From Myxococcota bacterium (lineage in GTDB: Bacteria > Myxococcota_A > Bradymonadia > UBA7976 > UBA1532), in NCBI GenBank assembly GCA_963169045.1, contig CAUJDF010000075.1:98434-162433 (forward strand): a DNA stretch of 64,000 nt, read 5' to 3'. This document shows positions 3,978-47,917 of this stretch, one piece after another. Within the stretch, counting starts at the first letter, position 1, and each line of letters opens with the position of its first letter. Below the pieces are notes generated by a model, which worked only from the letters and a program-made list of their open reading frames with translations, made no database searches and had not been told where the DNA came from. The position numbers were made by a program, and so were the translations under genes.

Positions 3978-4025
3978 GGCGGCGCATCATCGGACGACCG
4001 CCGCACGGACGCAATCGGGCTCACG

Positions 4026-25383: not shown

Positions 25384-25407
25384 TGGAACCTCCGATGCGT
25401 CGCGGCG

Positions 25408-25425
25408 ATTGCACGGCGGGTGCCA
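25408..25425 (-). promoter_or_regulatory. Weak candidate sigma54 (-24/-12) promoter upstream of the PPDK_N lipoprotein operon
   Basis: On the minus strand I read TGGCAC-CCGCC-GTGCA. The GG and GC spacing is correct, and the element sits ~25 nt before the ATG at 25383. Confidence 0.3.
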
Positions 25426-25576
25426 CGGGCGCGGGGCGCGGTGGGATGGGCGGAAGTCAGGGATTTTCGAGGATCCCCTCGGCGGTCGGTCTCGGATTTT
25501 CGGCGGCGATCTTGGGCGCAACCCACATCCCCCCGGAGCATCCGACGCCTCAGGGGATCCGAAGGGGAGACGTTCC

Positions 25577-30291: not shown

Positions 30292-32970
30292 GTGACGCCG
30301 CGCCGGTCGCTCGCGCTGCTGTCGAGCCTGCTCGTGGCCTGCGGCGAGCCCGTGGCGCCGGACGCCGGCGGCCCCCCCGACGCTGCGGTGACGCGCCCGC
30401 CGGACGCGGCCCCGCCCGACACCGGCGAAGCCGCGGACGCCGCGGCGGGGCGCCCGCCCGACGGCGCGCTGCCCGACGCGGCGCCGCCGCCCCCGCCGCT
30501 CCTCCGCATCAACGAGGTCGACTGCCGCGACCCGGCCCACGTGGAGATCGCCAACGCCGGCTCCGCCGCCGCGGACCTCGCCGGCTTCACCGTCGTCGCG
30601 GCACAGCACCCCGGCCGCGTCCTGCGCCTCGACGGCCGGCTCGAGGCCGGCGCCCTGCTCGACGTCGCCGCGCCACCGTTCGCCGTGCACTGCGGCGCCA
30701 CGACGGTGACGCTCCTCCGGCCCGACGGGACGGAGGCCGACCGCGTGGACGTCCCGCTCGGCCCCGCCGCGGCGACCTGGGGGCGACTGACGGACGGCTG
30801 GGGGACGACGGAGCCCACGCCCGGCACGCCCAATGTCCCGCTCTTGCCGCCGGCGCCCGAGCTGTTCGACCCGGCCGTCGTGCACGAGATCGCGCTGACG
30901 ATCGCCCCGGACGCCTGGCAGGTGCTGCGCGACGCAGGGCACATCATGGTGGACGCGGCGCTCGCCGCGGAGGGCGACACGACGCCCGTCGGCGTCCGCC
31001 TCGGCGGGCGCGACGGCCGGTACCGGCGCATCGATCAGAAGCCGTCCCTGCGGCTCGCCTTCGACCACCGCGCTCCGGAGCGGCGCTTCCGCGGCCTGCA
31101 GGGCCTCGTCCTCGATCCGGCGGGCCTCGATCCGGCGGTGCTCACCCGCTGGCTCGCCGGCGAGGTGCTCCGCGCGGCGGGCGTCGTCGCCCCGCGCGTC
31201 GGCTTCGCGCGCCTCGCCGTGAACGGCGAGGACTACGGCCTGTACCTGGTCGTCGAGGCGTGGGACGCGGGGCTCGCCGACCGGCACTTCCCCTCGACGT
31301 GGCATGTCTACGAGGGCGCCGGCCTCGACCTCGTGTCCGAGCACGTCGAGGCCTTCGACGTGGAGGTCGGCGAGCCGGCCGGCCGCCGCGGGCTCGTCCC
31401 CGTCGTCGCCGCGCTCGAGGCGGCGGGCGCCGACCTCTTCGGCGCCACCGCGGATTACGTGGACTGGGACGCCGTGTTGCGCGCGATGGCCGCGGAGGTC
31501 TGGATGGGCAGCGTCGACGGCTACGCGGTGGGCCGCCGCGCCGTCGCGCTCCACATCGACGCGCTGCCGCGGCTCACGCTGCTGCCGGCGGGGACGGATC
31601 TCGCCTTCCGCGCGCGGTCGCCCGTCCACGCCGGCGCCGGCCGCCTCCTGACGGCGTGCCTCGCCGACGCCGCGTGCGCCGCTGCGTGGGACGCGACGCT
31701 GGCCGACGTCTCCGCGGCGCTCGCCGATCTCGAGCTCCTCCCCGCGGCGCAGGCGCTGGCCGCCCGTTTGCGCCCGCACGTGGCGCGCGATCCGCGAACG
31801 CTGTTCTCGGTCGAGATGTTCGACGCCGACGTCGCCGTGATCCTCGGCTTCCTCGCCGAGCGGCCCGCGGAGATGGCCGCGCTCGGAGCGTGCCTGCGCG
31901 ACGCCGCCGACGCGGACGGCGACGGCGCAGTGTGCGACGCCGACTGCGCGCCGGACGATCCCGCCGTCCACGCGGGCGCGGCCGAGGTGTGCGGCGACGG
32001 CGTCGATCAGGACTGCAGCGGCGTCGCCGACGACGGCGCCTGCCCGGTGTGTACGCCGCTCGATCGCGGCGGGCATGGCTACCTCGTGTGCCCCGGCAGC
32101 TGGACGTGGGCGGACGCGCGCCGCGTGTGCACCGATCGCGGCCTCGACCTCGTCGCGATGGACGACGCCGGCGAGAACCGCTGGCTGCGGGCGCGCGCGG
32201 CGGCGGTGCGCCGCCAGGACTGGTGGCTCGGCCTCTCCGACACGGCGCGCGAGGGCACGTTCGCCTGGGTCGACGGTCGGGAGCGCGGGTTCGCGAACTG
32301 GGGCGGCGGCGAGCCCAACGACTACGGGGCCGGCGAGGATTGCGCCCAGCTCCGCAGCGACGGCGCCTGGAACGACCTGCCCTGCGACGCCGGCCTCGGC
32401 GCGCTGTGCGAGGCGCCGTGCGATCCGGCGACCGACGCCGACGGCGACGGCCACTCCGCGTGCGGCGCCGACTGCGACGACGCCGATCCGCAGGTGCACC
32501 CCGGCGCGGTCGACGTGTGCGGCGACGGCGTCGACCAGGACTGCTCCGGTGTCCCGGACGACGGCGCCGGCGAGGGGGACTGCGACTGCGCCGCCTTCGA
32601 GCGCGAGGGGCGGCGCTACCTCGTGTGCCCGCGGCCGCAGCCCTACGCCGCGGCCCGCGAGCTCTGCCGCGCGCACGGCGGCGACCTGGTCGTGGTCGGC
32701 GACGCCGCCGAGAACGCGTGGCTGTTCGCCACCGCCACCGGCCTCGTCCCGCAGCGCTACTGGATCGGCCTCGACGACCTCGCCGTGGAGGGCGCCTACC
32801 GCTGGGTGGACGGCACGCGTCCGCGCTTCGTGGCCTGGAGCCGCGGCGAGCCCAACGACTCGGGGCGCGCCGAGGACTGCGGCCACTTCTGGGAGGACGC
32901 GCCGCGCTGGAACGACATCGGCTGCGACGCGGCGCTCGGCGCGATCTGCGTCCTCAGAACGGCAGACTGA
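30292..32970 (+). CDS. Lipoprotein combining a lamin-tail domain, a CotH kinase-like domain, two C-type lectin domains and MopE-like Cys-rich metal-binding motifs
   Basis: GTG at 30292. LLSSLLVAC lipobox. LTD reads LRINEVDCRDPAHVEIANAG...FTVV. The central CotH-like region reads ...SLRLAFDH...GLYLVVEA.... CTLD signatures are WWLGLSD...WNDLPCD and YWIGLDDLAVEGAYRWVDG...WNDIGCDAALGAICV. CDDADPQVHPGAVDVCGDGVDQDCSG appears twice. Confidence 0.85.
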   Translation: MTPRRSLALLSSLLVACGEPVAPDAGGPPDAAVTRPPDAAPPDTGEAADAAAGRPPDGALPDAAPPPPPLLRINEVDCRDPAHVEIANAGSAAADLAGFTVVAAQHPGRVLRLDGRLEAGALLDVAAPPFAVHCGATTVTLLRPDGTEADRVDVPLGPAAATWGRLTDGWGTTEPTPGTPNVPLLPPAPELFDPAVVHEIALTIAPDAWQVLRDAGHIMVDAALAAEGDTTPVGVRLGGRDGRYRRIDQKPSLRLAFDHRAPERRFRGLQGLVLDPAGLDPAVLTRWLAGEVLRAAGVVAPRVGFARLAVNGEDYGLYLVVEAWDAGLADRHFPSTWHVYEGAGLDLVSEHVEAFDVEVGEPAGRRGLVPVVAALEAAGADLFGATADYVDWDAVLRAMAAEVWMGSVDGYAVGRRAVALHIDALPRLTLLPAGTDLAFRARSPVHAGAGRLLTACLADAACAAAWDATLADVSAALADLELLPAAQALAARLRPHVARDPRTLFSVEMFDADVAVILGFLAERPAEMAALGACLRDAADADGDGAVCDADCAPDDPAVHAGAAEVCGDGVDQDCSGVADDGACPVCTPLDRGGHGYLVCPGSWTWADARRVCTDRGLDLVAMDDAGENRWLRARAAAVRRQDWWLGLSDTAREGTFAWVDGRERGFANWGGGEPNDYGAGEDCAQLRSDGAWNDLPCDAGLGALCEAPCDPATDADGDGHSACGADCDDADPQVHPGAVDVCGDGVDQDCSGVPDDGAGEGDCDCAAFEREGRRYLVCPRPQPYAAARELCRAHGGDLVVVGDAAENAWLFATATGLVPQRYWIGLDDLAVEGAYRWVDGTRPRFVAWSRGEPNDSGRAEDCGHFWEDAPRWNDIGCDAALGAICVLRTAD

Positions 32971-33643
32971 TCGCCGCGCACAGGAACGAGAGGTAGTCGC
33001 GCGTTCGCTCGAACCGGCCGGCGAGCTCGTCGACGACGGCGGGTGAGCCGAACACGACGGGATCGAGGTCGCACACGGCGATGAACGAGGTGCGCTTCAG
33101 CTCCTCGGCCAGCGGGTGCGTCGCGTCGAACCCGCGCGGCACGCGCTTCAGCTTGTCGCCGCCCTGGCGGAACGTCTCGGCGAAGGCGGGCTCGCCGAGG
33201 ATGGCCGCAAAGCGCTCGCCCTTGTCGGCCACCTGCTCCCGGAGGCGCTGCAGCACCGCCGGCTCCGGCCCCCACAGGCCGGCCCCGAGGAAGCACCCCT
33301 CCGGCGCGAGGTGCACGTACAGCCCGGGCGCGTGCACGTCCTTGCCGGCGTCGTGCCGGAACTGGATGCCGACGTTCGTCTTGTACGGCGTCTTGTCCTT
33401 CGAGAAGCGCGTGTCGCGGTGGACGCGCATCAGCGAGCCGCCCACCTTGCGGTCGTCCGCCACGAAGTGGGGCGACAGCGCCTGCAGGCGCGGCTTCATC
33501 GCGCGGATGAACGCCCGCGCCGGCTCGCGCACGTCGCGCTCGTAGCGATCGCGGTTGGCCTCGAACCACGTGCGCTCGTTGCGCAGCGAGAGCTCCTCGA
33601 GGAACTCGAGCGTGCCCGCGGGGAAGCCGTCGAACGTCTCCAT
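32954..33643 (-). CDS. DUF2461 (TIGR02453) family protein
   Basis: ATG at 33643 with a GGAGGGAGG RBS. It reads METFDGFPAGTLEFLEELSLRNERTWFEANRDRYERDVREP..., a typical DUF2461 N-terminus. The long 5' extension in the track is not supported. Confidence 0.8.
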   Translation of the reverse strand: METFDGFPAGTLEFLEELSLRNERTWFEANRDRYERDVREPARAFIRAMKPRLQALSPHFVADDRKVGGSLMRVHRDTRFSKDKTPYKTNVGIQFRHDAGKDVHAPGLYVHLAPEGCFLGAGLWGPEPAVLQRLREQVADKGERFAAILGEPAFAETFRQGGDKLKRVPRGFDATHPLAEELKRTSFIAVCDLDPVVFGSPAVVDELAGRFERTRDYLSFLCAAISLPF

Positions 33644-33684: not shown

Positions 33685-34404
33685 TCAGCGCGGGCGGACC
33701 ACCAGCCACGTGCGGCGGATTTGACGCGCCTCGATGCGGCCGCCCTCGCCGAAATTCGAGTCGAGCTCGCCGCGGCGCACGCGGGCCACGGTCACCTCCA
33801 CGCGGCAGCTCTCCTCGCCGTGGGCCTCGAGGTCGCCCGGCTGCACGACCAGGCCGCCGCGGTCGTCGTGGATCACGCGCTCGAAGGGCCAGATGCAGTC
33901 GCCCTCGAGCCGCACCTCGACGGGATCGCCGGCGGCGCGGTCCCACGTGATGCGCACGCGGTCCTCGCCGGGCACGACGAGCGCGCCGGCCCGCGGCGAC
34001 GTCAGCCGGAACGGCTCGGGCAGCGACACCGTCGAGTCGTCGGCGTCCTCGCCGTTCTCGGACGGCCGCTCGAACGCCACGCGGAACTCGGTGTCGGCCT
34101 CGTCGCGCGAGAAGGCGGCCAGGTAGTGGACCTCGTCCCAGACGTTGCGGCTCGCGACCATCGTCTTCGTCTGCGCCTGCGCCGTGGCCAGCAGACGGTC
34201 GCCTGCGGTCAGCTCGAGGTAGGTGTTCGACGAGTCGCCGCCGGGGCGCAGCGTCGTGCGGACGATGCTCTGTCCGTCGCCGTGCGCCTCCACCTCGATC
34301 TCGGCGTACACACCCGAGGTACGCAGGTCGGCGGAGTCGAGCGTCTCGCAGGCGGCGACGGAGAGCAGGCTGACGGCGACGGCGATCTTCGCGGAACGAT
34401 TCAT
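33685..34404 (-). CDS. Hypothetical lipoprotein
   Basis: ATG at 34404 with a GGGGGAG RBS. MNRSAKIAVAVSLLSVAAC lipobox. It occupies the 3' end of the 2271-aa shadow ORF. Confidence 0.7.
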   Translation of the reverse strand: MNRSAKIAVAVSLLSVAACETLDSADLRTSGVYAEIEVEAHGDGQSIVRTTLRPGGDSSNTYLELTAGDRLLATAQAQTKTMVASRNVWDEVHYLAAFSRDEADTEFRVAFERPSENGEDADDSTVSLPEPFRLTSPRAGALVVPGEDRVRITWDRAAGDPVEVRLEGDCIWPFERVIHDDRGGLVVQPGDLEAHGEESCRVEVTVARVRRGELDSNFGEGGRIEARQIRRTWLVVRPR

Positions 34405-34650: not shown

Positions 34651-37600
34651 ATGTCCATGCGTAGGGTCACTTCGCTGACGAGCCTGCTGTGCCTTCTGTT
34701 CATGTTCGGCTGCACCGGCGAAGGCGGGGGCGGCGGTGACGGAGGCTCGGGCGGTGCCGGTGCTCAGGGCGGTGAAGGCGGCGCGGGCGGCTCGGGTGGC
34801 GAGGGCGGGGCCGGTGGAGAAGGCGGCGTCGGCGGCCAGGGCGGCGCCGGCGGCCCGGGCGGCGCCGGCGGCCAGGGCGGCGCCGGTGGACAAGGCGGCG
34901 CCGGCGGACAGGGCGGCGCCGGCGGTCAAGGCGGCGCCGGCGGTCAAGGCGGCGCCGGCGGTCAAGGCGGCGCCGGCGGAGAAGGCGGCGCCGGCGGAGA
35001 AGGCGGCGCCGGCGGAGAAGGCGGCGCCGGCGGAGAAGGCGGCGCCGGCGGAGAAGGCGGCGCCGGAGGTCAGGGCGGCGCCGGAGGTCAGGGCGGCGCC
35101 GGTGGCGCCGGCGGCCAGGGTGGCGCCGGCGGCGCGGGCGGTGAGGGCGGAGCGGGCGGCGCCGGCGGTGCGCCCGAGGTCGTCCTGCAGGGGCTGACGG
35201 TCGCGCCCGACGCCCTCCAGCTCGTCGCCGGCCAGACCGCGTACCTGCGCGTCGCCGGCACCTTCAGCGACGGCGACGAACGCGATCTGACCGACACCGC
35301 GGTCTGGCGCAGCGCCAACGGCGCGATCGTCGCCGTCGGCGCCCTCGGCGACGAGGGCAAGCAGGTCGTCGCCATCGGCGCCGGCCAGACGGCGATCACC
35401 GCCCGCGTCGGCGACGTCGTCAGCGGTCCGGTCGTGGTCACCGTGGCCGAGGTCGAGCCCGTCCGCATCGTCATCACGCCCGACGAGGCCACCGTGCCCG
35501 CCGGCGACTTCTTCGAGTTCACGGCGACCGCCGAGTTCAACGACGGTAACACCGCCGACGTGACCGAGCTGGCCGAGTGGCGCACCAGCAACGGCATCGT
35601 GGCCGAGATCTCCAACGAGCCCGGCGAGCGCGGGCGCCTCTCGGCCCACGTGGCGGGGGCGACGCAGGTCACGGCGATCTACGAGGGCCTGGTCTCGGCG
35701 CCGGTCCGCGTCGACGTCGCCGAGGCCGTCCTCATGGCGATCGACGTCTCGCCCGCCGATCCGACGGTGGCCGTCGGCCAGACGGTCTCCTTCACCGCGA
35801 CTGGCACCTACAGCGACGGCGACGAGGGCGACGTCACGGCGCTGGTGCAGTGGACGTCCTCCGACGAGGCCGTCGCGACCTTCGACGGCGCGCAGGGCGT
35901 GGCGCGCGGCGTCGCCGCCGGCCGGGCGCAGGTCGTCGCCCGCATCGGCGACCTCGCCAGCGCGCCGCGCACGATCAACGTCACGGCGGCGCGCGTCGTC
36001 GCGCTCGCCGCGCGCGGCGAGTCCGCCGAGGTGCCGGTCGGCGCGAACACACGCTTCCACGTCACCGCGACCCTGAGCGACGGCAGCGAGGTCGACTACT
36101 CGGCGCAGGCGGAGTGGCGCTCCTCCGACGCCGCGATCGCGCGCATCGTCGCCGGCGGCGTCGCCACCGGCGTGGCGCCCGGCGACGTGCAGATCACGGC
36201 GCACGCCGGCAACGTCGCGAGCGCGGCCCTGCCGCTGCGCGTCGTGCCCGTGGCGCTCACCGCGCTCGCGGTCGAGCCCGACAGCGCCGACCTCCGCGTG
36301 GGCGAGGTGACCCGCCTCGTGGCCCGCGGCACGTTCAACGACGGCTCCCGCGCCGACGTCACCGCGCGGGCCCAGTGGCGCAGCGCCAACGGCCTGATCG
36401 CCAGCGTCGGCGACGCCGAGCCCGACAAGGGCGCGGTCCGCGGCGTCGGCGCCGGGCAGACGCGCATCACCGCTTCCCTCGACGGCCAGGCGGCGGTCGC
36501 CACGGTCAACGTCCGCGCCCTCGCGGTCGCCCGGCTCGAGGTCGCGCCGGCCCAGGCCGAGGTCCCGCTGGGCGGCGAGCAGGCGTTCACCGCCACGGCG
36601 GTGCTCGAAGACGCCTCGCGCCGCGACGCTACCGCCGAGGTCAGCTGGCACAGCAGCGACGAGGGCGTGGCCACGGTCGACAACGAGGGCGAGGGCCGCG
36701 GTGTCGCCACCGGCCGCGGGCGCGGCCAGGCGTCGATCACCGCCCGGCTCGGCGCCGTCGTCAGCCCCGCGGCGACGCTCACCGTGACCGAGCCCGAGCT
36801 CACCGAGGTCTACGTCACGCCCGACGAGACCGAGGTGATCGTCGGCGAGACCGTGCAGTTCGAGGCGACCGCGGTGTACTCCGACGGCACCGAGCTCGAC
36901 GTCACCGAGCAGGCGCGCTGGACGATCGAGCCCGCCGAGCTCGCCGACATCTCCAACGCCGAGGGCACGCGCGGCGCGGCCACCGGCCAGCGTCTCGGCG
37001 TCGCCGACGTCTTCGCCTCCTTCGACGGCGAGCTCTCCGGGGCGGCGTCCCTGACGGTGCTGCCCGTGCCGAACCGCGCGCCGATCGTTCAGCTGCAGTG
37101 CCCGGAGTCGGGCCGCGAGGGCGACGCGCTCGACTTCGGCGCCGTGGGCACGAGCGACCCCGACGGCTCGATCGCCCGGCTGCTGTGGAACTTCGGGGAC
37201 GGCTCGCCGGCCATCGACATCGGCGACGGGCGCGCCGTCTCGTACACCTACGACGCCTCGGGCCCCTTCACGGTCGAGGTGACGGCCATCGACGACGAGG
37301 GCGCGCGGACGATCGCGCGCTGCAACGTGACCATCCTCAGCGCGAACGCCCCGACGGTGCGGCTCGTCCGCCCGCAGGGCGCCCGCGACACCACCCAGGG
37401 GGAGGTGATCTCGGCGCTCGTCGACGCGCGCCCCGGTCCGGGTCGCAACATCCGGCGCGTGGCGCTGCTGCTCGACGGGGAGGAGGTCGCCTTCGACGCC
37501 GACCTGCCCTACGAGATGGACTTCACGGTCCCCGCCGACGCGGCCACCGGCGCCACGCTGCGCCTCGTCGCCCAGGCGACGGACGACCGCAACGAGTCCG

Positions 37601-40575
37601 GCATCTCGGCGGCCACGCTGCTCAACGTCGTCAACGAGCTGCCCACGGCGACGTTCGTGGCCGTACCGTTCGCCATCCGCCAGGTGCGCGTGGACGCCGG
37701 CGGCGTGACCGACGACACGACGACGACCGCAAACCTGCAGGTTCGTTGGGATTTCCAGAACGACGGCGTCTGGGACACGCCCTTCGCCGCCGAGAAGACC
37801 GCCACCTTCGAGTACCCGGCCGTCGGCGACTACACCATCAAGATGGAGGTCCGCGACAACATCGGCCAGACGGCGTCGACGACGCGCGAGGTGCGCTTCC
37901 GCGACCAGCAGGTGGTGTTCGGCGACATCGAGAGCCAGGTCTGGTTCGGCACGATCATCGTGACGGGTGACGTCCGCGTGTTGCCGAACAACACGCTGAC
38001 CATCGCCGCCGGCACCCGCGTCCTCGTGACCAACGTCGACCAGGACCGCAACAACATCGGCGACTACACTTTGCAGGTCGACGGCCGCATGGTGGTCGAG
38101 GGCGAGCCGACGAACCCGGTGGTGTTCACCGTCTTCGGTGACGCGCAGCGGGCGGGCGCCTGGGACCGCATCATCCTCGCCGGCGCCGGCAGCACCATCA
38201 CCCACGCGGTGGTCGAGTACGCCGACGTCGGCATCGAGGCCCGCGCCGCGGCGACGCTCTCCAACGTCACCGTCCAGAACACCCGCTGGGACGGCATCTG
38301 GATCAACCGCGGCAACAACACGGCGCTGACCGACGTCACGGCGCACCACACGCGCAGCGGCGTCTCCGTCACGAACGCGACGGGCGTCCAGATCACGCGC
38401 CTGACGAGCCGTGAGAACGGCCAGGTCGGCCTCTACGCCGCCGACTCGACCGCGACGGTGGCCGACTCGGTGTTCCAGCAGAACGCGAACGACGGCGTCT
38501 ACGCGGAGCGCAGCAGCCTGACGTTCACCAACCCGTCGATCACGCGGAACGGCGGCAACGGCGTGCAGCAGTTCGACGGCACGCTCAACCTTCGCGACGG
38601 CGCGGTCGGTCGCAACGGCGCCGTCGGCATCGCGGTCCGCGGCGCCGTCAACGGCACGATCCAGCGGAACAACATCACCGAGAACGCGTTCGAGGGCGTC
38701 TCCGTCACCTACCACCAGGGCCGCAACCCGACCGTCGCGGTGACGCGCAACAACATCCACTCGAACGCGACGACGCGCAGCCACGTCTACACGGTGATCA
38801 CGGCGGGGCTGCCGTCCGCGAGCGACAGCTCGCGCGACGGTGTGCGCGTCACGTCGCAAGTGTGGACGCCGCCCGCGGGACACACGCTGCTGTTCGTCGA
38901 GGCCGACTACTCCGGCAATCAGGACGACTTCGGCGAGCTGCAGGACGGCACCGGCCGCGTCATCGATACCTTCCGGCCCGGCGCGAGCGCGCGCGTCTAT
39001 GACCGCAGCAGCGCCGAGCAGCGCCTGCGCGTGAGCGCCTGGGACGACGACTGCTGCACGGCGTCGACGATCCGCGTCGCCCGGGTCGTGACGCGGAGCA
39101 ACGGGCAGCGCGGCCAGCTCGTCGTCGCCGCCACGGCGGGCGCGATCAACGCCCGCGAGAACTACCTCGGCGTGTACCCCGACGTGCTGAGCGCCGTCTC
39201 CATCTCCCCGGCCATGGCCGCCGACCTCCAGGGCTTCGTCGGCGTCCCCTTCGACAACACGTGGAACACCGGGCCCTACTACGGCGGCGCCCTCGCGGCC
39301 GACACGACGTGGTCGGGCACGATCTTCGTGAGCGGCGACGTCACGGTGCCGGCCGGCCGGACGCTGACGGTCGAGGCGGGGACGCAGGTGCTCGTCGCGC
39401 CGATCGACCAGGACGGCAACGGCATCGGCGACTACAAGGTCGAGAGCAGCGGCGCCCTGGTGATCGCCGGCGCCCAGGGCAACCCGGTGAACTTCCGGGC
39501 GGACGACGCCGCGGGCGCCGTCCGGGACTGGGAGGGCATCCGCGTCCTCGGCGGTGGCTCGTCCGCGCGCTTCGTCACCGTGGCCGACACCGACACCGGT
39601 CTGCACCTCGCCGGCGCCGGCGCCGTCGTCGAAGACGCGACCATTCGCCGCGCCCACGTGGGCGTGCGCGTCGCGGGCGGCAACCCCACGCTGCGCCGCC
39701 TCCTCGTGCGCGACAGCGCGAGCCACGGCGTGCACGCGCAGCAGGCGGTGACGATCGAGGTGGCGACGGCGCGCAACAACGCCGGCAACGGCTTCGTGCT
39801 CGAGGGCGGGGCGGGTCGCCTCTCCGACATCTACTCGATCGAGAACGCCGGCCACGGCATCGACGTGCGCAGCCAGGGCAACAACGTGACGTTCTTCGAG
39901 TCGAGCGGCAACGGCCAGCAGGGCGTCCACCTGTACGCCGCGGCGTCGGGGACGTTCTCGGACTGCCTCGTCACGCTGAACGGCGGTGCCGGCTTCTACT
40001 TCGGCTCGCAGTACGACAACCACCCGCAGGCGACGGTCACGCGCTGCAACATCCTGAGCAACGCCAGCGTGGAGGGCGGCGGCGTGACGACGGCGACGGA
40101 GGCCCTCAACGTCGTCTCCGCCACCGACAGTGCGCGCGACGGCGTCCGCGTCACGTCCGGCGACTACAACGCGCCGTTCCCCATCTACGAGGCGAGGGTC
40201 GCGACCAGCGGCAACCAGGACGACTTCAGCGAGCTGATCAACTCGGTCAACGGTCAGTCCTTCGGCGCGCTGTCGCCGGGCACGATCCGCTGGTACGACA
40301 TCGCCAGCCTCATGCGCCTCCGCGTGTCGGCCTGGGACGACGACTGCTGCACGGCGAGCTCGATCACCGTGACCAACGTGCGCATGTACCGAGCGGGCCA
40401 GCAGAACCTCGACCTGGTCTCGAACGCGTTCGCCGCGAACCGCATCAACGCCCAGAACAACTTCTGGGGCGTCTTCCCGAACGTGGCGGGGAAGATCCAC
40501 GAGGGTCTGGCCGGCTCGGTCGATTACCGCGGCTTCCAGCCGAACGCGTTCCAGAACGTGGGGCCGCGGCAGTGA
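34651..40575 (+). CDS. Giant (~1975 aa) surface lipoprotein: (GGAGGxGG)n linker, ~10 Big_2 Ig-like domains, 2 PKD domains, and two duplicated parallel beta-helix modules each ending in a DDCCTAS motif
   Basis: MSMRRVTSLTSLLCLLFMFGC lipobox; a ~150-aa GGAGG repeat block; Big_2-like repeats (...VTAIYEGLVSAPVRVDV...); PKD motifs (LWNFGDGSP...YTYDASG and WDFQNDGVWD); and two beta-helix modules each followed by VRVTS...SGNQDDF.ELx...LRVSAWDDDCCTAS. Confidence 0.9.
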   Translation: MSMRRVTSLTSLLCLLFMFGCTGEGGGGGDGGSGGAGAQGGEGGAGGSGGEGGAGGEGGVGGQGGAGGPGGAGGQGGAGGQGGAGGQGGAGGQGGAGGQGGAGGQGGAGGEGGAGGEGGAGGEGGAGGEGGAGGEGGAGGQGGAGGQGGAGGAGGQGGAGGAGGEGGAGGAGGAPEVVLQGLTVAPDALQLVAGQTAYLRVAGTFSDGDERDLTDTAVWRSANGAIVAVGALGDEGKQVVAIGAGQTAITARVGDVVSGPVVVTVAEVEPVRIVITPDEATVPAGDFFEFTATAEFNDGNTADVTELAEWRTSNGIVAEISNEPGERGRLSAHVAGATQVTAIYEGLVSAPVRVDVAEAVLMAIDVSPADPTVAVGQTVSFTATGTYSDGDEGDVTALVQWTSSDEAVATFDGAQGVARGVAAGRAQVVARIGDLASAPRTINVTAARVVALAARGESAEVPVGANTRFHVTATLSDGSEVDYSAQAEWRSSDAAIARIVAGGVATGVAPGDVQITAHAGNVASAALPLRVVPVALTALAVEPDSADLRVGEVTRLVARGTFNDGSRADVTARAQWRSANGLIASVGDAEPDKGAVRGVGAGQTRITASLDGQAAVATVNVRALAVARLEVAPAQAEVPLGGEQAFTATAVLEDASRRDATAEVSWHSSDEGVATVDNEGEGRGVATGRGRGQASITARLGAVVSPAATLTVTEPELTEVYVTPDETEVIVGETVQFEATAVYSDGTELDVTEQARWTIEPAELADISNAEGTRGAATGQRLGVADVFASFDGELSGAASLTVLPVPNRAPIVQLQCPESGREGDALDFGAVGTSDPDGSIARLLWNFGDGSPAIDIGDGRAVSYTYDASGPFTVEVTAIDDEGARTIARCNVTILSANAPTVRLVRPQGARDTTQGEVISALVDARPGPGRNIRRVALLLDGEEVAFDADLPYEMDFTVPADAATGATLRLVAQATDDRNESGISAATLLNVVNELPTATFVAVPFAIRQVRVDAGGVTDDTTTTANLQVRWDFQNDGVWDTPFAAEKTATFEYPAVGDYTIKMEVRDNIGQTASTTREVRFRDQQVVFGDIESQVWFGTIIVTGDVRVLPNNTLTIAAGTRVLVTNVDQDRNNIGDYTLQVDGRMVVEGEPTNPVVFTVFGDAQRAGAWDRIILAGAGSTITHAVVEYADVGIEARAAATLSNVTVQNTRWDGIWINRGNNTALTDVTAHHTRSGVSVTNATGVQITRLTSRENGQVGLYAADSTATVADSVFQQNANDGVYAERSSLTFTNPSITRNGGNGVQQFDGTLNLRDGAVGRNGAVGIAVRGAVNGTIQRNNITENAFEGVSVTYHQGRNPTVAVTRNNIHSNATTRSHVYTVITAGLPSASDSSRDGVRVTSQVWTPPAGHTLLFVEADYSGNQDDFGELQDGTGRVIDTFRPGASARVYDRSSAEQRLRVSAWDDDCCTASTIRVARVVTRSNGQRGQLVVAATAGAINARENYLGVYPDVLSAVSISPAMAADLQGFVGVPFDNTWNTGPYYGGALAADTTWSGTIFVSGDVTVPAGRTLTVEAGTQVLVAPIDQDGNGIGDYKVESSGALVIAGAQGNPVNFRADDAAGAVRDWEGIRVLGGGSSARFVTVADTDTGLHLAGAGAVVEDATIRRAHVGVRVAGGNPTLRRLLVRDSASHGVHAQQAVTIEVATARNNAGNGFVLEGGAGRLSDIYSIENAGHGIDVRSQGNNVTFFESSGNGQQGVHLYAAASGTFSDCLVTLNGGAGFYFGSQYDNHPQATVTRCNILSNASVEGGGVTTATEALNVVSATDSARDGVRVTSGDYNAPFPIYEARVATSGNQDDFSELINSVNGQSFGALSPGTIRWYDIASLMRLRVSAWDDDCCTASSITVTNVRMYRAGQQNLDLVSNAFAANRINAQNNFWGVFPNVAGKIHEGLAGSVDYRGFQPNAFQNVGPRQ

Positions 40576-41720
40576 GCCGCTCGGCGCTCGCGCTGGCGGC
40601 GCTGCTGCTGGCGGCGTGCGCCCAGGTGGACGGCGGCGGCGTCGCCGAGGACGACGCCGCCCCTGCCGCCGACGCCGCGCTCCCGTCCGACGGGGACACC
40701 GACGGCGCCTCGCCCGACCTCGGCTGGCTCGACGACGCCTTCCGGCCCCTTCCGCCCCCCCTCGACGGCGCCGTCCGCCCGCCCGATGCGGCCCTGCCGC
40801 CGCCCGACGCCTCCGAGTCCGAGCCCGACTCGAACCCGCCGCCGCCCCCGCCGCCTGACGCGGCGCCCCCGCCGCCTCCGGTCGTGCAGTGCGTCTTTCG
40901 CGCCGTCGACTTCGACGGACCGCAGCGCGAGTACGACGTGATGGGGCGGTCCGACGAGCGATTGCGCTTCACGATCAACGACCTGCCCGATCCGGCGAGC
41001 GTGCGCCGCGCGGTGCTGACGTTCGATACGTGGGACGCCGACCACCCCGGCGAGGAGGGCCGCCTCTGGCTCAACGGCCAGGGCCCGTGGGACATCCCCG
41101 CCCGCGCCGACGGCGACAACCAGCCCGGGACGGGCGAGGTGGACGTCACCGGCGCCACGATCGCCGGCAGCAACCGCGTCGAGTTCGGCAGCAGCCTCAC
41201 CGAGGCGCGCACCTTCTACCGCATCGGCCGCGTCGCCCTGCGGCTCGACGTCCAGGCCGCCGCCTGCCCCGACGGCCCGCCGCCGCCCCCGCCGGACGCG
41301 GTCGTGCGCTCGCTCCACTACCGCCGCGCCGAGTACACGCAGCGCCGCAACTGGGTCGTGCGTTGCAACGACTATGCGTACACCGGACGCGGCGAGGAGC
41401 ACCTCGAGGAGGACTGCGACGGCCTCTTCCGCCCCGACGGCTCCCGCCGCGGCACCGCCATCTTCCGCTTCCCGGCGGTGGTCGAGGCCGAGTACGAGGT
41501 GCGCATCCGCTCGCGGCACACCGTGAACCGCAATCCGCGCGGCGCGCTGTTCGTCGTGAACGGGGTCGAGGGCCGCGTCGCCCAGAACGACGACCGCGAC
41601 CGGGTCGAGGACGTCTGGGGCCGCATCCGGCTCGGCGGCGACGTCACCGTCGTCCTCGACAGCAGCCGGGACGACGGCAGCGACAGCGTCATCGAGGTGC
41701 GGCTCGTCCCCGTCCGCTGA
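40572..41720 (+). CDS. Hypothetical Pro-rich lipoprotein translationally coupled to the giant adhesin-like gene
   Basis: GTG at 40572 overlaps the TGA of the upstream gene (GTGA). VSRSALALAALLLAAC lipobox, Pro-rich linkers, and a Cys-containing C-terminal domain. Confidence 0.7.
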   Translation: MSRSALALAALLLAACAQVDGGGVAEDDAAPAADAALPSDGDTDGASPDLGWLDDAFRPLPPPLDGAVRPPDAALPPPDASESEPDSNPPPPPPPDAAPPPPPVVQCVFRAVDFDGPQREYDVMGRSDERLRFTINDLPDPASVRRAVLTFDTWDADHPGEEGRLWLNGQGPWDIPARADGDNQPGTGEVDVTGATIAGSNRVEFGSSLTEARTFYRIGRVALRLDVQAAACPDGPPPPPPDAVVRSLHYRRAEYTQRRNWVVRCNDYAYTGRGEEHLEEDCDGLFRPDGSRRGTAIFRFPAVVEAEYEVRIRSRHTVNRNPRGALFVVNGVEGRVAQNDDRDRVEDVWGRIRLGGDVTVVLDSSRDDGSDSVIEVRLVPVR

Positions 41721-43675: not shown

Positions 43676-44512
43676 TTACTTGACGTTGACCGTCGCGGTG
43701 ACCGACTTGCCGCTCGGCTCCGAGGCGGTGATCGTCGCGCTGCCCGCGCCGACGGCGGTGATGGTGCCGTCGGGGCCGACGGTGGCGATCTTGTCGTCGC
43801 TGGTGGCGAACGTCACCACGAGGTCCGCGATCGCGGTGCCGGCGGCGTCGACCGGGGTGACCTCGAACTTCGCCGTCGCGGCGGGGGCGAGGTCGAAGGT
43901 CGTCGTGGCGGCGTTGAGCGCGCTCGGGCCGGCCGGGGAGACCTTCACGGTCGCGGTGCCGGTCAGGCTGCGGCTGGTGGCGGTGATCTTGGCCTCGCCG
44001 GCGGCGACGGCGGTCACGTTGCCGTTGGCGTCGACCTTGGCGACGTTCTCGTCGCTCGAGGACCAGGTGATGGCGGCGTCACCGATGGCGGCGCCCGCCT
44101 CGTCGGCCACCTCGCCCTTGAGGGCGCCGAGATCGCCGACCTTGGCGTCCCAGCTCTCGGGGGTGACCTTGAGGGTCTGATAGATCTTGATGGTGACCGG
44201 GATCTGCTTCTTCACCTCGCCGACCGACGCCGTGATGGTCGTCTTGCCGGACTTCTTGGCGAGGACCTCGCCGCTGGCCGAGACCGTCGCGATGTCCGCC
44301 TTGTCGGACGCGAAGGCGACCTTGGCATCGGCGATGGGCTTGCCTTCCGCGTCGACGACCTTGGTCTTGAGGGTGACCTTCTCGTCGGCCGAGAAGAGGT
44401 TGACCGCCGCCGGATCGGACTGGATGTCGTGGGGCTTCTGACCGCAGGCCGAGAGGGAGAGAGCCGCGAGGAGGCTCACGCACGCTACCTGAACCGAACG
44501 AACGCCGCGCAT
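43676..44512 (-). CDS. Lipoprotein with tandem Big_2 (bacterial Ig-like) domains
   Basis: ATG at 44512 with an AGGAG RBS. MRGVRSVQVACVSLLAALSLSAC lipobox. The repeats read ...ATVSASGEVLAKKSGKTTITASVG... and ...KITATSRSLTGTATVKV.... Confidence 0.8.
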   Translation of the reverse strand: MRGVRSVQVACVSLLAALSLSACGQKPHDIQSDPAAVNLFSADEKVTLKTKVVDAEGKPIADAKVAFASDKADIATVSASGEVLAKKSGKTTITASVGEVKKQIPVTIKIYQTLKVTPESWDAKVGDLGALKGEVADEAGAAIGDAAITWSSSDENVAKVDANGNVTAVAAGEAKITATSRSLTGTATVKVSPAGPSALNAATTTFDLAPAATAKFEVTPVDAAGTAIADLVVTFATSDDKIATVGPDGTITAVGAGSATITASEPSGKSVTATVNVK

Positions 44513-44653
44513 CTGACAACGCTCCTGGTGAAATGGCCGGATGGGTCTCCCCCGGCCCTGAAAGCGCGCGGAGAAATGCGCCGACTCCTGTGCGCCGTCA
44601 AGATCAATTCCGTCGATCGACGGAATTCCGAACATGCTGTGACTACGAAGGAT

Positions 44654-47600: not shown

Positions 47601-47917
47601 GCCAGCGCGCGCTTGAGCCGGTTGGGCAGGTTGATCGCGCGCCGCGAGATCTCGCCCTCGAGGTCGGGCATCGTGGTGACGAGCAGGTGGTTGATCGCGT
47701 GGCTGCAGCGCGGTCCGAGGCCGGTGGAGCCGAGCGCGCGCCGGCCGGCGTCCAGCATCAGCGCCTCGAGGCGCCGCCCGTTCTCGCCGGGGGGCTCGTC
47801 GCCGCTGCGGGCCTTCTCGAATACGCGGGTCAGATCGCCTTCGGGCGCGCCGGGCCGCTGCGAATACTCGCCGGCCAGCACGTAGACGGTGCGCGTGGGG
47901 TCCAGCATGCGCGACAC
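44654..47917 (-). CDS. Large (1087 aa) protein with an N-terminal thiolase-like (condensing-enzyme fold) domain and an uncharacterised ~600-aa C-terminal region
   Basis: N-terminus reads TVYVLAGEYS.... A thiolase-type C-terminal signature NPYGGLTAFGHALAASGLVQ is present. The C-terminal half has a weak resemblance to a nucleotidyl-cyclase-like fold (…VRAAVCIGPGVPFREVHG…) that I cannot confirm. GTG start at 47917, with an alternative ATG at 47908. Confidence 0.75.
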   Translation of the reverse strand: MSRMLDPTRTVYVLAGEYSQRPGAPEGDLTRVFEKARSGDEPPGENGRRLEALMLDAGRRALGSTGLGPRCSHAINHLLVTTMPDLEGEISRRAINLPNRLKRALALSDRCQARLEIGSSDAGAALFASAVRQLRGLDAPATALVVAGQVLPGGRRAIDTVAQVLEEAERTLGLTMIGVGDMLVDLYGHWLRQEGLGQAWSEGVRVAGRARPASRAPDVEAWLREVVMYKLGLANEYRAAQRYVDPGRPESVQRQLDEYERSRPMGRWLRGWHTAQASNGACAVLLTTDEALVRDWLADRQQRRIVRVLGVGEGDADPRVTMRAEPFAYFKSVRQALVEVRRSTGTNDDFLRTSAFLVLHDAFPSIEMAFLLSLGCTPHDAWRRARSYWPNPYGGLTAFGHALAASGLVQIAKATHVLLRQTPYVRTESPSQHIDWTRVAEPVHCLTTSVGGPLSHVVATLLEACPVRPGEAPLAPPFAPPQRHRLRADAADDFEARTRWVGRQATRYRAALAEVLPGIPEAGRHAGVVEARTELDLRTMVLPLPAAYVDAWRPSASRWIEAGLPPDALATTDASLRRAIAGSSDMICRTHVLEAALDVAERLPTPARLPPDARRDLLAALRVARGRLQSPDEHGLTRAEADHDGRRALRRIDRQVERLLAAGGGPAQAVKWVETSLWSVLRPAVATVTGVLPPLWVDGAREVEPVRALCLLHPEHVESRTQLTGRIVALTGGPDEGPYPLAVAVLPEDVCPGLVPPWYRPLGEPGDLRHLREALASDAPTDGDGGASPRRFTADALGAPDELGGPMPVDVDALVAALAREGCTASAMRQVFRVATVVVEALLARPRQMPPAGAVQLLHELVLRAEPGPWRLRDALQSLFPPALPGGAETEVFGYVELNVIGALAVQGEDLGRIFGTLSAAIAAAEGWLAGASVDHGRVADSLSVVVRNDVTPVNWTNVARFARDVYRAALDAGIAVRAAVCIGPGVPFREVHGGRSLAGGVQKAAHLVLEQSEYFRRPELGDSRARRDGIATVLVGGGWQEESARQRCQAIWSDVGGEEMETAAFGRLQAPGHDPVWFHVVRALAG

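What the first reader, a model, noticed from the sequence alone, without database searches (positions are those of the whole stretch)
34651..41720. Giant adhesin-like lipoprotein with a tandem duplication of a beta-helix plus 'DDCCTAS' module, coupled by a GTGA overlap to a partner lipoprotein
The 1975-aa product strings together a lipobox, a 150-aa GGAGG tether, ~10 Big_2 domains and 2 PKD domains. It ends with two ~450-aa modules that are clear paralogues. Each is a parallel beta-helix followed by the conserved segment 'VRVTS...SGNQDDF.EL....G...........R.YD..S...LRVSAWDDDCCTAS.I.V..V......Q..LV..A.A...INA..N..GV.PN'. The paired adjacent cysteines and the 'GNQDDF' motif are not something I can assign to a known domain. 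The next gene starts on the stop codon (40572 GTG / 40573 TGA) and encodes a Pro-rich lipoprotein with a Cys-containing C-terminal domain, so the two are probably made together as a surface complex.
Basis: seen in the sequence. Interest (0 to 1): 0.58.

Follow-up and report, generated by a model that had tools for sequence, protein, structure and literature searches.

The report
Two-headed surface lipoprotein with matched hypervariable patches
A giant stalked lipoprotein of a myxobacterium ends in two beta-helix heads; each carries an undescribed small domain with three fast-evolving surface patches that stay identical in both heads, probably a variable recognition site, and the "partner" gene next door is a chance neighbour.

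Summary
A 1974-aa lipoprotein gene (34651-40575) has a 153-aa Gly-rich tether, 7 Big_2 domains (not ~10), 2 PKD domains and an unassigned Ig-like domain. It ends in two paralogous ~435-aa modules (34% identity, E 1e-55). A GTGA overlap leads into a Pro-rich lipoprotein gene (40572-41720).

The interpretation needs correcting.
1. The duplication is ancient and fixed. Only 67 cluster representatives among 1.84 billion proteins match, and genome hits are all Myxococcota/Bradymonadia MAGs. Complete members have two modules (two have three), and A and B are separate orthologous classes.
2. The "DDCCTAS segment" is a ~105-aa beta-sandwich inserted before the last coil of each beta-helix. It has no Pfam, NCBIfam or PDB relative.
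3. "DDCCTAS", "GNQDDF" and "SRDGVRVTS" are not family motifs. They are this lineage's versions of three Ser/Thr/Gly/Tyr-rich patches. These patches are 72% identical between the two heads of one protein but 22% identical between proteins. The sandwich is the fastest-evolving part of the protein. Codon evidence shows the matching is at least partly selected, not only gene conversion.
4. The partner belongs to a widespread stand-alone Myxococcota lipoprotein family. It sits beside the giant only in this lineage.

Best reading: a surface receptor or adhesin with two equivalent, rapidly diversifying binding sites.

The parts
34651..40575 (+). Giant lipoprotein gene, 1974 aa plus stop
   Evidence: Translation; GC3 0.96; Pfam Big_2, PKD, Beta_helix and NosD; full-length orthologues at 30-48% identity in 13 MAG loci
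34651..34713 (+). Signal peptide with lipobox (MFGC, Cys21)
   Evidence: Read from the sequence; lipoboxes in 20 of 27 full-length family members. Not tested with a signal-peptide predictor.
34714..35172 (+). 153-aa Gly-rich (GGAGG[Q/E]) tether, aa 22-174
   Evidence: 9/18-nt tandem repeats (family D1). A Gly-rich tether (G fraction 0.23-0.58, highest in the window) occurs only in this subclade; other members have acidic low-complexity linkers.
35185..37062 (+). Seven Big_2 domains, aa 179-804
   Evidence: jackhmmer self-search finds 7 units, i-E 1e-28 to 1e-44; Pfam PF02368 E 8.4e-37
37072..37905 (+). PKD domain (aa 808-890), unassigned Ig-like domain (~893-990), second PKD domain (~995-1085)
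   Evidence: Pfam PKD_4 with 2 stretches, E 4e-20; weak Y_Y_Y/ChitinaseA_N match at aa 1029-1085. Boundaries of the second and third domains are approximate.
37942..38766 (+). Module A right-handed parallel beta-helix, aa 1098-1372, with a DxD..G.GD loop (D1130, G1137, D1138)
   Evidence: Pfam Beta_helix/NosD; family conservation; homologous to the modelled module B
38809..39135 (+). Module A inserted beta-sandwich, aa 1387-1495 (the 'DDCCTAS segment')
   Evidence: AF2 model pLDDT 84; no Pfam, NCBIfam or PDB relative; 49% identity to the L014 orthologue against 80% for the helix, dN/dS 0.98
38815..38856 (+). Matched patch 1 of module A (SASDSSRDGVRVTS, aa 1389-1402)
   Evidence: Per-column excess of within-protein A=B identity; 41-nt DNA match to 40117-40157
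38911..38940 (+). Matched patch 2 of module A (SGNQDDFGEL, aa 1421-1430)
   Evidence: 28-nt, 93% DNA match to 40209-40236
39028..39072 (+). Matched patch 3 of module A (RVSAWDDDCCTASTI, aa 1460-1474), including the adjacent Cys1468-Cys1469
   Evidence: 57-nt, 82% repeat D8. These are the only cysteines in module A.
39136..39309 (+). Module A tail and conserved A/B junction (INARENYLGVYPDVL...DLQGFVGVPFD..W.TGPYYGG), aa 1496-1553
   Evidence: The tail is the part best conserved between proteins (A-A identity 0.41-0.42); Y1543 and G1546 of the junction are conserved in >=0.9 of B modules
39310..40062 (+). Module B right-handed parallel beta-helix, aa 1554-1804
   Evidence: AF2 model of aa 1537-1974, pLDDT 94.5, pTM 0.92; Foldseek hits to tailspikes and AlgE epimerases at beta-helix level only
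40108..40413 (+). Module B inserted beta-sandwich, aa 1820-1921
   Evidence: strand map; 54% identity to the L014 orthologue, dS 0.61 against 0.36-0.37 in the flanks
40114..40155 (+). Matched patch 1 of module B (SATDSARDGVRVTS, aa 1822-1835)
40204..40233 (+). Matched patch 2 of module B (TSGNQDDFSE, aa 1852-1861)
40321..40365 (+). Matched patch 3 of module B (RVSAWDDDCCTASSI, aa 1891-1905), including Cys1899-Cys1900
40414..40572 (+). Module B tail ending in the conserved C-terminal ...GP(Q/R)
   Evidence: N1937, W1939, D1958, G1971 and P1972 are conserved in >=0.85 of B modules
40572..41720 (+). Downstream lipoprotein gene (382 aa). Its GTG start overlaps the TGA stop. It has a LAAC16 lipobox, Pro-rich linkers and two beta-rich domains. 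It is a neighbour here, not a demonstrated part of the system.
   Evidence: at least 144 homologues without Pfam domains; the adjacency is found only in L014

Best explanation
The gene encodes a lipid-anchored surface protein on a long stalk. The stalk is a flexible tether followed by ten Ig-like domains. At its far end are two (in some relatives three) rigidly joined beta-helix heads.

Each head carries a previously undescribed ~105-aa beta-sandwich inserted before its last coil. Three Ser/Thr/Gly/Tyr-rich patches on that sandwich most likely form the specificity-determining binding surface. In this lineage the patches read SDS(S/A)RDGVRVTS, SGNQDDF and SAWDDDCCTAS.

The patches change quickly between lineages but are held to the same sequence in every head of one protein. 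The molecule would therefore offer two equivalent binding sites for one variable target. The probable target is a repeating or multivalent surface structure, such as a polysaccharide of prey or of the cell's own matrix.

The adjacent cysteines are one lineage's version of a patch. They probably form a vicinal disulfide in an exposed loop.

The downstream lipoprotein is co-transcribed here. It belongs to an independent, widespread family and is not a conserved partner.

Shown: the architecture, the fold class, the absence of a known domain match, the ancient duplication, the hypervariability, the A=B matching, and the non-conservation of the partner. Inferred: surface exposure, the binding role, the nature of the target, and the disulfide.
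For: Architecture and lipoprotein status.

Rare, clade-restricted family with a fixed two-module end:
- 67 representatives among 1.84e9 proteins.
- Two C-terminal modules ~435 aa apart in every complete member, three in two of them.
- The best non-self match of an A module is another A in 40 of 41 cases, and of a B module another B in 46 of 47.

Structure: AF2 model of module B has pLDDT 94.5 and shows a beta-helix followed by a beta-sandwich. The sandwich modelled alone has pLDDT 84.

No known relative.

Hypervariability. In five close pairs the sandwich has the lowest identity in four. In the fifth (L012/L013) module B's helix is lower. Examples:
- WIN/L014: stalk 0.89, helix 0.80 and 0.63, sandwich 0.48 and 0.55, dN/dS up to 0.98.
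- L004/L026: helix 0.96 against sandwich 0.90.

Matching between heads:
- Sandwich identity is 0.49 between A and B of one protein, against 0.21-0.22 between proteins.
- Helix identity is 0.31 within a protein against 0.29-0.34 between proteins.
- The best match of an A sandwich is its own B in 33 of 40 proteins. For the helix this is true in 1 of 40.
- The excess is confined to three patches.
- Patch identity is 0.72 [0.66-0.78] within a protein against 0.22 between proteins, and 0.89-0.97 in the three-module proteins.
- Mirrored substitutions occur in independent close pairs: 14, 10, 13 and 3.

Selection rather than only conversion:
- Synonymous identity between A and B is not raised in the sandwich (0.545 against 0.527, p 0.28).
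- Matched columns that did not change show 168 of 274 identical codons against 165 expected.
- Several mirrored serines use AGC in one head and TCN in the other.

Patch composition resembles a binding site: Ser 19%, Thr 11%, Gly 11%, Tyr 8.9% (2.5% in the helix). Every CC pair in the family lies in patch 1 or patch 3, and in both heads wherever both could be scored.

Vicinal disulfides can bind ligand rings, occur on mobile loops, or stabilise structure (PMC12102755).

The helix has no conserved acidic or basic residues apart from a DxD..GD loop.
Against: - No experiment or structure shows that the three patches lie together on an exposed face. I could not inspect model coordinates.
- Surface localisation is inferred from the lipobox and the architecture only.
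- Averaged over the sandwich, dN/dS stays at or below 1. Between close pairs the patches do not evolve faster than the sandwich framework (pooled omega 0.45 for both). Positive selection is therefore not demonstrated.
- The patch columns were defined from the same data used to measure them. The whole-sandwich figures are free of that circularity.
- Some contribution from gene conversion cannot be excluded: L012 gives p 0.002, and mirrored columns show 70 of 97 identical codons against 60.6 expected.
- The data would also fit a requirement that both heads meet the same co-evolving protein partner, or each other.
Confidence: 0.5

Rival explanations
1. One reading: the giant protein and the downstream Pro-rich lipoprotein are translationally coupled and assemble into a surface complex. 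The DDCCTAS module is the conserved functional signature.
For: The GTGA overlap is real and both genes have strong coding signal. Both have lipoprotein signal peptides. The same arrangement, including the 4-nt overlap, is kept in the close relative L014.
Against: The partner has no tblastn match in any of the 13 orthologous giant loci, and the downstream genes there differ. Partner homologues at 49-67% identity sit alone after FtsK, DnaA, an M50 peptidase or a formyltransferase. In MAG HK-STAS-MYXO-10 the two genes are on different contigs. In L007 the giant overlaps a cytoplasmic GNAT gene by ATGA. The DDCCTAS and GNQDDF strings are not conserved.
Confidence: 0.08
2. The heads are polysaccharide-degrading enzymes built like phage tailspike depolymerases. 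The beta-helix would be the catalytic body. The inserted sandwich would be a substrate-specificity or carbohydrate-binding module that tracks variable glycans.
For: The whole-module model finds tailspikes, capsule depolymerases, a K1 lyase and AlgE epimerases as its best PDB matches. Pfam Beta_helix/NosD matches. The weak sandwich matches include CBMs and lectins. Fast evolution of the specificity element fits variable glycans.
Against: TM-scores are 0.2-0.4 with rmsd 8-18 A, which is only generic beta-helix similarity. No acidic, His, Lys or Arg residue on the helix body is conserved across the family in both modules. Conservation is limited to Gly, Asn-ladder, Trp and Pro positions and the DxD..GD loop.
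Confidence: 0.17
3. The protein is a polymorphic self-recognition receptor. The identical patches on the two heads would bind the same patches on a neighbouring cell, or on each other, so that only cells carrying the same allele adhere. This would work like TraA-mediated kin recognition in Myxococcus.
For: Patches are hypervariable between lineages yet forced to match within a molecule. Part of the matching is selected at the protein level. The family is restricted to social or predatory Myxococcota/Bradymonadia. There is a precedent for a polymorphic variable-domain receptor with homotypic binding (PMC3820747, PMC6372800, PMC6626042).
Against: There is no PA14, Cys-rich stalk or MYXO-CTERM, so the protein is unrelated to TraA. 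No within-species allele series was available. Divergence rises gradually with distance and does not switch between alleles. Homotypic binding does not by itself require A to equal B.
Confidence: 0.13
4. The A=B matching is a neutral by-product of repeated short-tract gene conversion between the two sandwich-coding segments and has no functional meaning.
For: Only the three patches keep detectable DNA similarity: 28-43 nt at 85-93%. In L012 (GC3 0.70) synonymous identity is 0.65 in the sandwich against 0.35 in the helix, p 0.002. Mirrored columns have slightly more identical codons than expected, 70 of 97 against 60.6.
Against: The pooled synonymous identity shows no excess. Static matched columns are at the codon-usage expectation, 168 of 274 against 165. 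Identical patch peptides are encoded very differently in one genome: L004 has GAC GTC ACG TCG GCC AAT GGC against GAC GTG ACA AGC GCG AAC GGG. Mirrored serines come from different codon families. Conversion would have to be confined to three separate 30-45-nt tracts in every lineage.
Confidence: 0.12

Closest known systems
PbH1/CASH right-handed parallel beta-helix surface proteins (Pfam Beta_helix PF13229, NosD PF05048)
   Same: Both heads match these models above the curated thresholds. They have the Asn-ladder N..G repeat and the closing N-Y-W-G strand.
   Different: A ~105-aa beta-sandwich is inserted between the last NNI.GN coil and the NYWG strand. The heads come as a fixed, anciently duplicated pair at the C-terminus of a stalked lipoprotein.
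Phage tailspike and capsule depolymerase proteins (e.g. CBA120 TSP2/TSP4, HK620, Klebsiella K1 lyase)
   Same: A beta-helix body followed by a C-terminal beta-sandwich. These are the best PDB fold matches for the whole module. Both have specificity regions that evolve quickly.
   Different: The similarity is generic only (TM 0.2-0.4). There is no trimerisation or particle-binding domain and no conserved catalytic residues. The protein is a cellular lipoprotein with two heads in one chain.
TraA polymorphic cell-surface receptor of Myxococcus (PMC3820747, PMC6372800, PMC6626042)
   Same: A Myxococcota surface protein with a hypervariable recognition region. It is encoded next to a second envelope gene (traB).
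   Different: No sequence or domain relation: no PA14-like variable domain and no MYXO-CTERM. The variable element here is duplicated and matched within one chain. The neighbouring gene is not conserved.
Intimin/invasin-type and other Big_2-stalk adhesins
   Same: A membrane anchor, a rod of bacterial Ig-like domains and a variable receptor-binding tip. This comparison rests on my own knowledge of these families.
   Different: The anchor is a lipid, not a beta-barrel. The tip is a pair of beta-helix heads with inserted sandwiches, not a C-type-lectin-like domain.
Generic beta-sandwich modules (GOLD, CUB, CBMs, TNF-like lectin)
   Same: These are the top Foldseek matches of the isolated sandwich, with TM normalised to the target of about 0.5.
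   Different: No match reaches E <= 1e-3, and sequence identity is 6-20%. No Pfam model is hit consistently in 50 members.

Membership tests
Parallel beta-helix repeat proteins (Pfam PF13229 Beta_helix / PF05048 NosD) | Profile match above the curated gathering score | tested here: met
   Beta_helix 102.7 bits (cut-off 25.9), 3 stretches; NosD 52.7 bits (cut-off 23.6)
Parallel beta-helix repeat proteins | Right-handed beta-helix fold | tested here: met
   AF2 model of aa 1537-1974 has pLDDT 94.5 with regular ~22-residue coils. The best PDB matches are beta-helix proteins.
Big_2 / PKD Ig-like stalk | Profile matches above threshold | tested here: met
   Big_2 125 bits; PKD_4 72 bits (2 stretches). 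Seven Big_2 units by self-search.
Bacterial lipoprotein | Signal peptide ending in a lipobox with an invariant Cys | tested here: inconclusive
   The window has MFGC21, which is atypical at positions -3 and -2. 20 of 27 full-length relatives have canonical boxes such as LVAC or LAGC. No dedicated predictor or experiment was available.
Phage tailspike / polysaccharide depolymerase | Close fold match including the C-terminal domain | tested here: not met
   TM 0.16-0.39, rmsd 8-18 A
Phage tailspike / polysaccharide depolymerase | Conserved catalytic acidic residues on the helix face | tested here: not met
   No Asp, Glu, His, Lys or Arg on the helix body is conserved in both modules. The only such positions are D1586/D1594 (D1130/D1138 in module A) in the N-terminal loop.
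TraA-type polymorphic receptor | PA14-like variable domain, Cys-rich repeats and a MYXO-CTERM tag | tested here: not met
   No such Pfam or NCBIfam hits. The protein ends ...NVGPRQ with no C-terminal transmembrane tag.
TraA-type polymorphic receptor | Allele-specific homotypic binding | not testable with these tools
   Needs cell-mixing or binding experiments
Diversity-generating retroelement target | A template repeat (TR) nearly identical to the variable region | tested here: not met
   blastn of both sandwich-coding segments against the 64-kb window finds only each other's three patches. No further repeat lies in 33-42 kb. The window was not scanned for a reverse transcriptase.
Conserved two-gene system (giant + downstream lipoprotein) | Co-occurrence and adjacency across genomes | tested here: not met
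   0 of 13 orthologous giant loci carry a partner homologue. Of 9 partner contexts, only L014 has the giant upstream.

The most novel reading that the evidence does not exclude
The matched hypervariable patches may be a self-matching recognition code. Selection would keep the same fast-changing sequence on every head of one molecule because the heads pair with identical heads, either in trans between cells or in cis/trans exchange. That would make this family a second polymorphic identity or adhesion receptor of Myxococcota/Bradymonadia, unrelated to TraA. It would also be a rare documented case of paralogous domains evolving in parallel, residue by residue, under selection rather than by gene conversion.
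Probability: 0.15. Interest if true: 0.85.

Novelty: new variant of a known kind. Interest (0 to 1): 0.6.

Why it matters
Giant Ig-stalk proteins with beta-helix tips are common and usually filed as "adhesin-like". This one is different in three ways.

- A small, clade-restricted family carries an undescribed insertion domain.
- Three patches of that domain turn over rapidly between lineages, yet stay the same in every head of one protein.
- Codon evidence shows that at least part of this matching comes from selection on the protein.

This pinpoints about 39 residues per head as the probable specificity determinant. It makes a sharp prediction: swapping the patches should swap the specificity.

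The family may be a new polymorphic recognition system in social and predatory bacteria. It is also a clean natural example for studying parallel evolution of paralogous binding sites.

The result also corrects two tempting over-readings. A motif repeated within one protein is not necessarily a family signature. A 4-nt gene overlap is not evidence for a protein complex.

Tried and rejected
Searches that gave nothing or could not run:
- The search for homologous proteins with the module B segment and with a 50-sequence alignment returned nothing. The index-free HMMER search found 67 relatives. The empty results therefore reflect the word index, not absence.
It succeeded with the closer alignment A4.
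- Pfam at E <= 10 on the segments, the module cap and both partner domains gave only sub-threshold noise: VHL, and DUF3344 at E 0.023.
- A PDB profile search gave one spurious nanobody hit.

Hypotheses tested and rejected or weakened:
- Recent gene conversion as the whole explanation. Synonymous tests were negative except in L012.
- Patches evolving faster than the sandwich framework between close pairs. They do not; pooled omega is 0.45 for both.
- Abrupt allelic cassette switching. Divergence scales with distance.
- A DGR-like template copy. None was found.
- Internal similarity between the two partner domains, or paralogues of the partner in the window. None was found.
- A conserved upstream partner. 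Only a weak CotH-family similarity appears, in L003 and L005.

Literature searches found no description of this family.

Full report
**What is in the sequence.** The window has about 75% G+C. Its neighbouring genes point to Myxococcota: an FHA-sigma54 activator, a GAF histidine kinase, a CotH/C-type-lectin/MopE protein, an M48 peptidase and a LysR regulator.

The ORF at 34651-40575 (+) encodes 1974 aa with GC3 0.96. From N- to C-terminus it contains:
- a signal peptide ending in MFGC21;
- a 153-aa GGAGG(Q/E) tether encoded by 9/18-nt tandem repeats;
- seven Big_2 domains, aa 179-804 (Pfam E 8e-37);
- a PKD domain, an unassigned Ig-like domain and a second PKD domain;
- two modules of about 435 aa that align at 34% identity, E 1e-55.

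The strings VRVTS, GNQDDF and DDCCTAS each occur once per module. The stop codon overlaps a GTG start (CAGTGAGC). The following 382-aa ORF has GC3 0.96, a LAAC lipobox, Pro-rich linkers and two globular domains.

**The family.** A profile of the two segments was searched without a word index against 1.84 billion cluster representatives. It found only 67 proteins.
- In every member that is not an obvious fragment, the segment occurs twice (three times in two proteins). The copies are about 435 aa apart, and the last one ends within a few residues of the C-terminus.
- The best non-self match of an A module is another protein's A module in 40 of 41 cases. For B modules the figure is 46 of 47. The duplication therefore predates the family, and A and B are distinct orthologous classes.
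- Scans of genome and metagenome collections found 13 and 9 loci. Every named genome locus is from a Myxococcota, Bradymonadia or "Deltaproteobacteria" MAG. The orthologues are full-length at 30-48% identity.
- Most full-length members start with a lipoprotein signal peptide followed by a low-complexity linker.

**What the "DDCCTAS segment" is.** An AlphaFold2 model of aa 1537-1974, built with 27 family sequences, has pLDDT 94.5 and pTM 0.92. It shows a capped right-handed beta-helix of about 11 coils. A beta-sandwich of long strands follows (aa ~1812-1921). Then comes the strand carrying INAQNNFWGVFPNV and a short tail.

The NYWG strand and the NNI.GN coil before the sandwich are conserved helix elements. 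The sandwich is therefore an insertion near the C-terminal end of each helix.

The sandwich modelled alone has pLDDT 84. Its matches are as follows:
- Pfam and NCBIfam: nothing for the window proteins.
- Pfam on 50 family members: no consistent hit.
- PDB sequence profile: nothing meaningful.
- Foldseek: no PDB match with E <= 1e-3. The best are GOLD, CUB, CBM and TNF-like-lectin sandwiches, with TM about 0.5 on the target. BFVD is equally generic.

The whole module matches phage tailspikes, capsule depolymerases and AlgE epimerases, but only at beta-helix level (TM 0.2-0.4). Conservation along the helix is confined to Gly, Asn-ladder, Trp and Pro positions and a DxD..G.GD loop in the N-terminal cap. 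I read that loop as a possible Ca2+ site, which is an inference. No catalytic-type residue is conserved in both modules.

**The motifs are lineage-specific states of matched hypervariable patches.** The CC pair is present in only 32 of 108 segments. L014 is a JGI metagenome contig with the same gene order. Its giant gene is 80% identical at the DNA level, and its downstream genes 90%. In L014 both modules read EDANRDGSSVSS, G(N/A)GSSYGE and RANYVDCC(S/T)RTT. In the window both read SDS(S/A)RDGVRVTS, SGNQDDF and SAWDDDCCTAS.

Across 40 proteins that have both modules:

| Region | Within-protein A-B identity | Between-protein identity |
|---|---|---|
| Helix | 0.31 | 0.29-0.34 |
| Sandwich | 0.49 | 0.21-0.22 |
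| Tail | 0.29 | 0.27-0.42 |

The best match of an A sandwich in the whole data set is its own B sandwich in 33 of 40 proteins. For the helix that is true in 1 of 40.

A per-column profile puts the excess at zero over the helix and the tail. Within the sandwich it is concentrated in three patches. Over those 39 columns, identity is 0.72 (bootstrap 0.66-0.78) within proteins and 0.22 between proteins. In the two three-module proteins it is 0.89-0.97 for every pair of modules.

The patch columns were chosen from the same data. The whole-sandwich contrast does not share that circularity.

The patches are rich in Ser (19%), Thr, Gly and Tyr (8.9%, against 2.5% in the helix). Every adjacent-Cys pair in the family's modules lies in patch 1 or patch 3, and in both modules wherever both could be scored.

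**Rate of change.** I compared five independent close pairs. In four the sandwich diverges fastest.
- WIN/L014: stalk 0.89, A helix 0.80, A sandwich 0.48 (dN/dS 0.98), B helix 0.63, B sandwich 0.55, tails 0.75.
- L003/L005 and L004/L006 give similar figures.
- The weakest contrast among these is L001/L002, at 0.85 against 0.89-0.91.
- In L012/L013 module B's helix (0.48) is lower than the sandwiches.

Closer metagenomic pairs show the same gradient: L004/L026 at 0.96 against 0.90, and L002/L025 at 0.95 against 0.82-0.87. The change is therefore gradual rather than a cassette swap.

Synonymous divergence between WIN and L014 is also higher in the sandwiches (0.53-0.61) than in the flanks (0.30-0.40). 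Between close pairs the patches do not evolve faster than the sandwich framework. The whole insertion is fast. The patches are special because they are matched.

**How the matching is maintained.** Alignments of close pairs show many mirrored substitutions, in which A and B change to the same new residue. There are 14 in WIN/L014, 10 in L003/L005, 13 in L028/L029 and 3 in the very close pair L002/L025.

At the DNA level, the only detectable similarity between the two sandwich-coding segments of the window is in the three patches: 41, 28 and 43 nt at 85-93%. However, synonymous codon identity between A and B is no higher in the sandwich than in the anciently diverged helix.
- Pooled four- and six-fold codons: 0.545 against 0.527, p 0.28.
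- The window alone: p 0.89.
- Only L012, which has the weakest codon bias, shows an excess: 0.65 against 0.35, p 0.002.

Matched columns that did not change are at the codon-usage expectation, 168 of 274 against 165. Mirrored columns are slightly above it, 70 of 97 against 60.6.

Identical patch peptides can be encoded quite differently within one genome. In L004, DVTSANG is GAC GTC ACG TCG GCC AAT GGC in one head and GAC GTG ACA AGC GCG AAC GGG in the other. Several mirrored serines use AGC in one head and TCN in the other.

I conclude that gene conversion may contribute, and clearly does in L012. A substantial part of the matching must come from selection for the same amino acids in both heads.

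**The partner.** The partner's two domains have no Pfam or NCBIfam match. They do have at least 144 homologous clusters. All are unnamed proteins of 280-450 aa from Myxococcota, including Enhygromyxa, Nannocystaceae, Polyangiales and Bradymonadia.
- None of the 13 loci with a giant orthologue contains a partner homologue within 10 kb. The genes downstream of the giant differ from locus to locus. In L007 the downstream gene is a GNAT acetyltransferase that overlaps the giant's stop by ATGA.
- Of nine partner-homologue contexts, only L014 has the giant upstream. Seven have other neighbours: FtsK, DnaA, an M50 peptidase or a divergent formyltransferase, and in two cases divergently oriented unrelated genes. 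The ninth (L015) begins at a contig end, so its upstream gene is unknown.

The adjacency is therefore a recent, lineage-specific juxtaposition. Co-transcription in this organism is likely. A conserved complex is not supported.

**Interpretation.** The anatomy is a lipid anchor, a flexible tether, ten Ig-like domains and a rigidly joined pair of beta-helix heads. The A/B junction follows the A tail, the part best conserved between proteins (A-A identity 0.41-0.42). This is the anatomy of a surface receptor or adhesin that holds its functional end far from the membrane.

The inserted sandwiches are the only part under rapid diversification. Their three matched, Ser/Thr/Gly/Tyr-rich patches are the best candidates for the specificity-determining surface. 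Equal patches on two or three heads would give two or three equivalent sites, which suits a repeating or multivalent target.

The adjacent cysteines are the only cysteines in module A. They most simply form a vicinal disulfide in an exposed hairpin. Such disulfides are known to contact ligand rings, including sugars, and to occur on mobile loops (PMC12102755).

The alternatives are as follows:
- a tailspike-like depolymerase in which the sandwich is the specificity module;
- a TraA-like homotypic identity receptor (PMC3820747, PMC6372800, PMC6626042);
- neutral concerted evolution;

The report sections weigh each of these.

**Limits.**
- I could not inspect model coordinates, so I do not know whether the three patches are contiguous in space.
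- No within-species allele series was available.
- Surface exposure, ligand, disulfide state and co-transcription remain untested.

**Verdict.** The thing itself is a new variant of a known kind. It is a stalked beta-helix surface lipoprotein with an undescribed insertion domain, whose hypervariable patches are kept identical across tandem heads.

Noticed in passing
window 33685-34398 (-) and 32954-33640 (-): The 1.7-kb 'gap' upstream of the giant gene holds two minus-strand genes that the ORF list hides. One is a 237-aa lipoprotein (MNRSAKIAVAVSLLSVAAC...) with no Pfam match, divergent from the giant. The other is a DUF2461 protein (E 1e-64). The giant therefore has its own ~250-bp promoter region and is not co-transcribed with the CotH gene.
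   Followed up: partly
window 30292-32970 (+); L003 ~3020-3860; L005 ~3138-3980: A secreted CotH-kinase-like protein with two C-type lectin domains and MopE metal-binding motifs lies upstream. A weakly similar CotH-family gene (26% identity) also lies upstream of the giant orthologue in L003 and L005, which may reflect loose synteny.
   Followed up: partly
L012 (JAFDKH010000004.1), giant orthologue: This is the only locus where the two sandwiches show raised synonymous identity: aa identity 0.75, four/six-fold codon identity 0.65 against 0.35 in the helix, p 0.002. It is direct evidence for recent intragenic gene conversion in that lineage.
   Followed up: partly
window 40555-40572 and the C-termini of family members: Nearly all family members end in ...(T/V)GP(Q/R), followed by 0-3 residues (G1971 0.91, P1972 0.87). 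A motif conserved at the very C-terminus could be a processing or sorting signal, or simply the end of the fold.
   Followed up: no
window ~38036-38064 and ~39404-39432 (aa 1130-1138, 1586-1594): A D-Q-D-x-(N/D)-G-x-G-D loop in the N-terminal cap of each beta-helix is almost invariant family-wide (D 0.96-1.00, G 0.98-1.00). It resembles Ca2+-binding DxDxDG loops.
   Followed up: no
window 34662-35200: The GGAGG(Q/E) tether is encoded by a long array of 9/18-nt imperfect tandem repeats, so its length may vary by slippage. Relatives outside this subclade have acidic low-complexity linkers instead.
   Followed up: no
L007 11554-12225: The giant orthologue's stop overlaps (ATGA) the start of a GNAT acetyltransferase gene. 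This shows that 4-nt overlaps with unrelated downstream genes recur at this locus.
   Followed up: yes
window 44654-47917 (-), 21319-23190 (-), 23364-25541 (-), 25550-27016 (-): Several large ORFs with strong coding signal (GC3 > 0.94; 25550-27016 not confirmed) near the finding have no Pfam match at E <= 1e-3. The adjacent ORF 43676-44635 (-) is a small Big_1/Big_2 protein.
   Followed up: no
partner family: P0068-P0187, L016-L024: The downstream lipoprotein belongs to an uncharacterised two-domain family with at least 144 clusters. The named members are all from Myxococcota, and the proteins occur as stand-alone genes. The second domain looks to me like a carbohydrate-binding-type beta-sandwich, but I did not test this.
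   Followed up: partly
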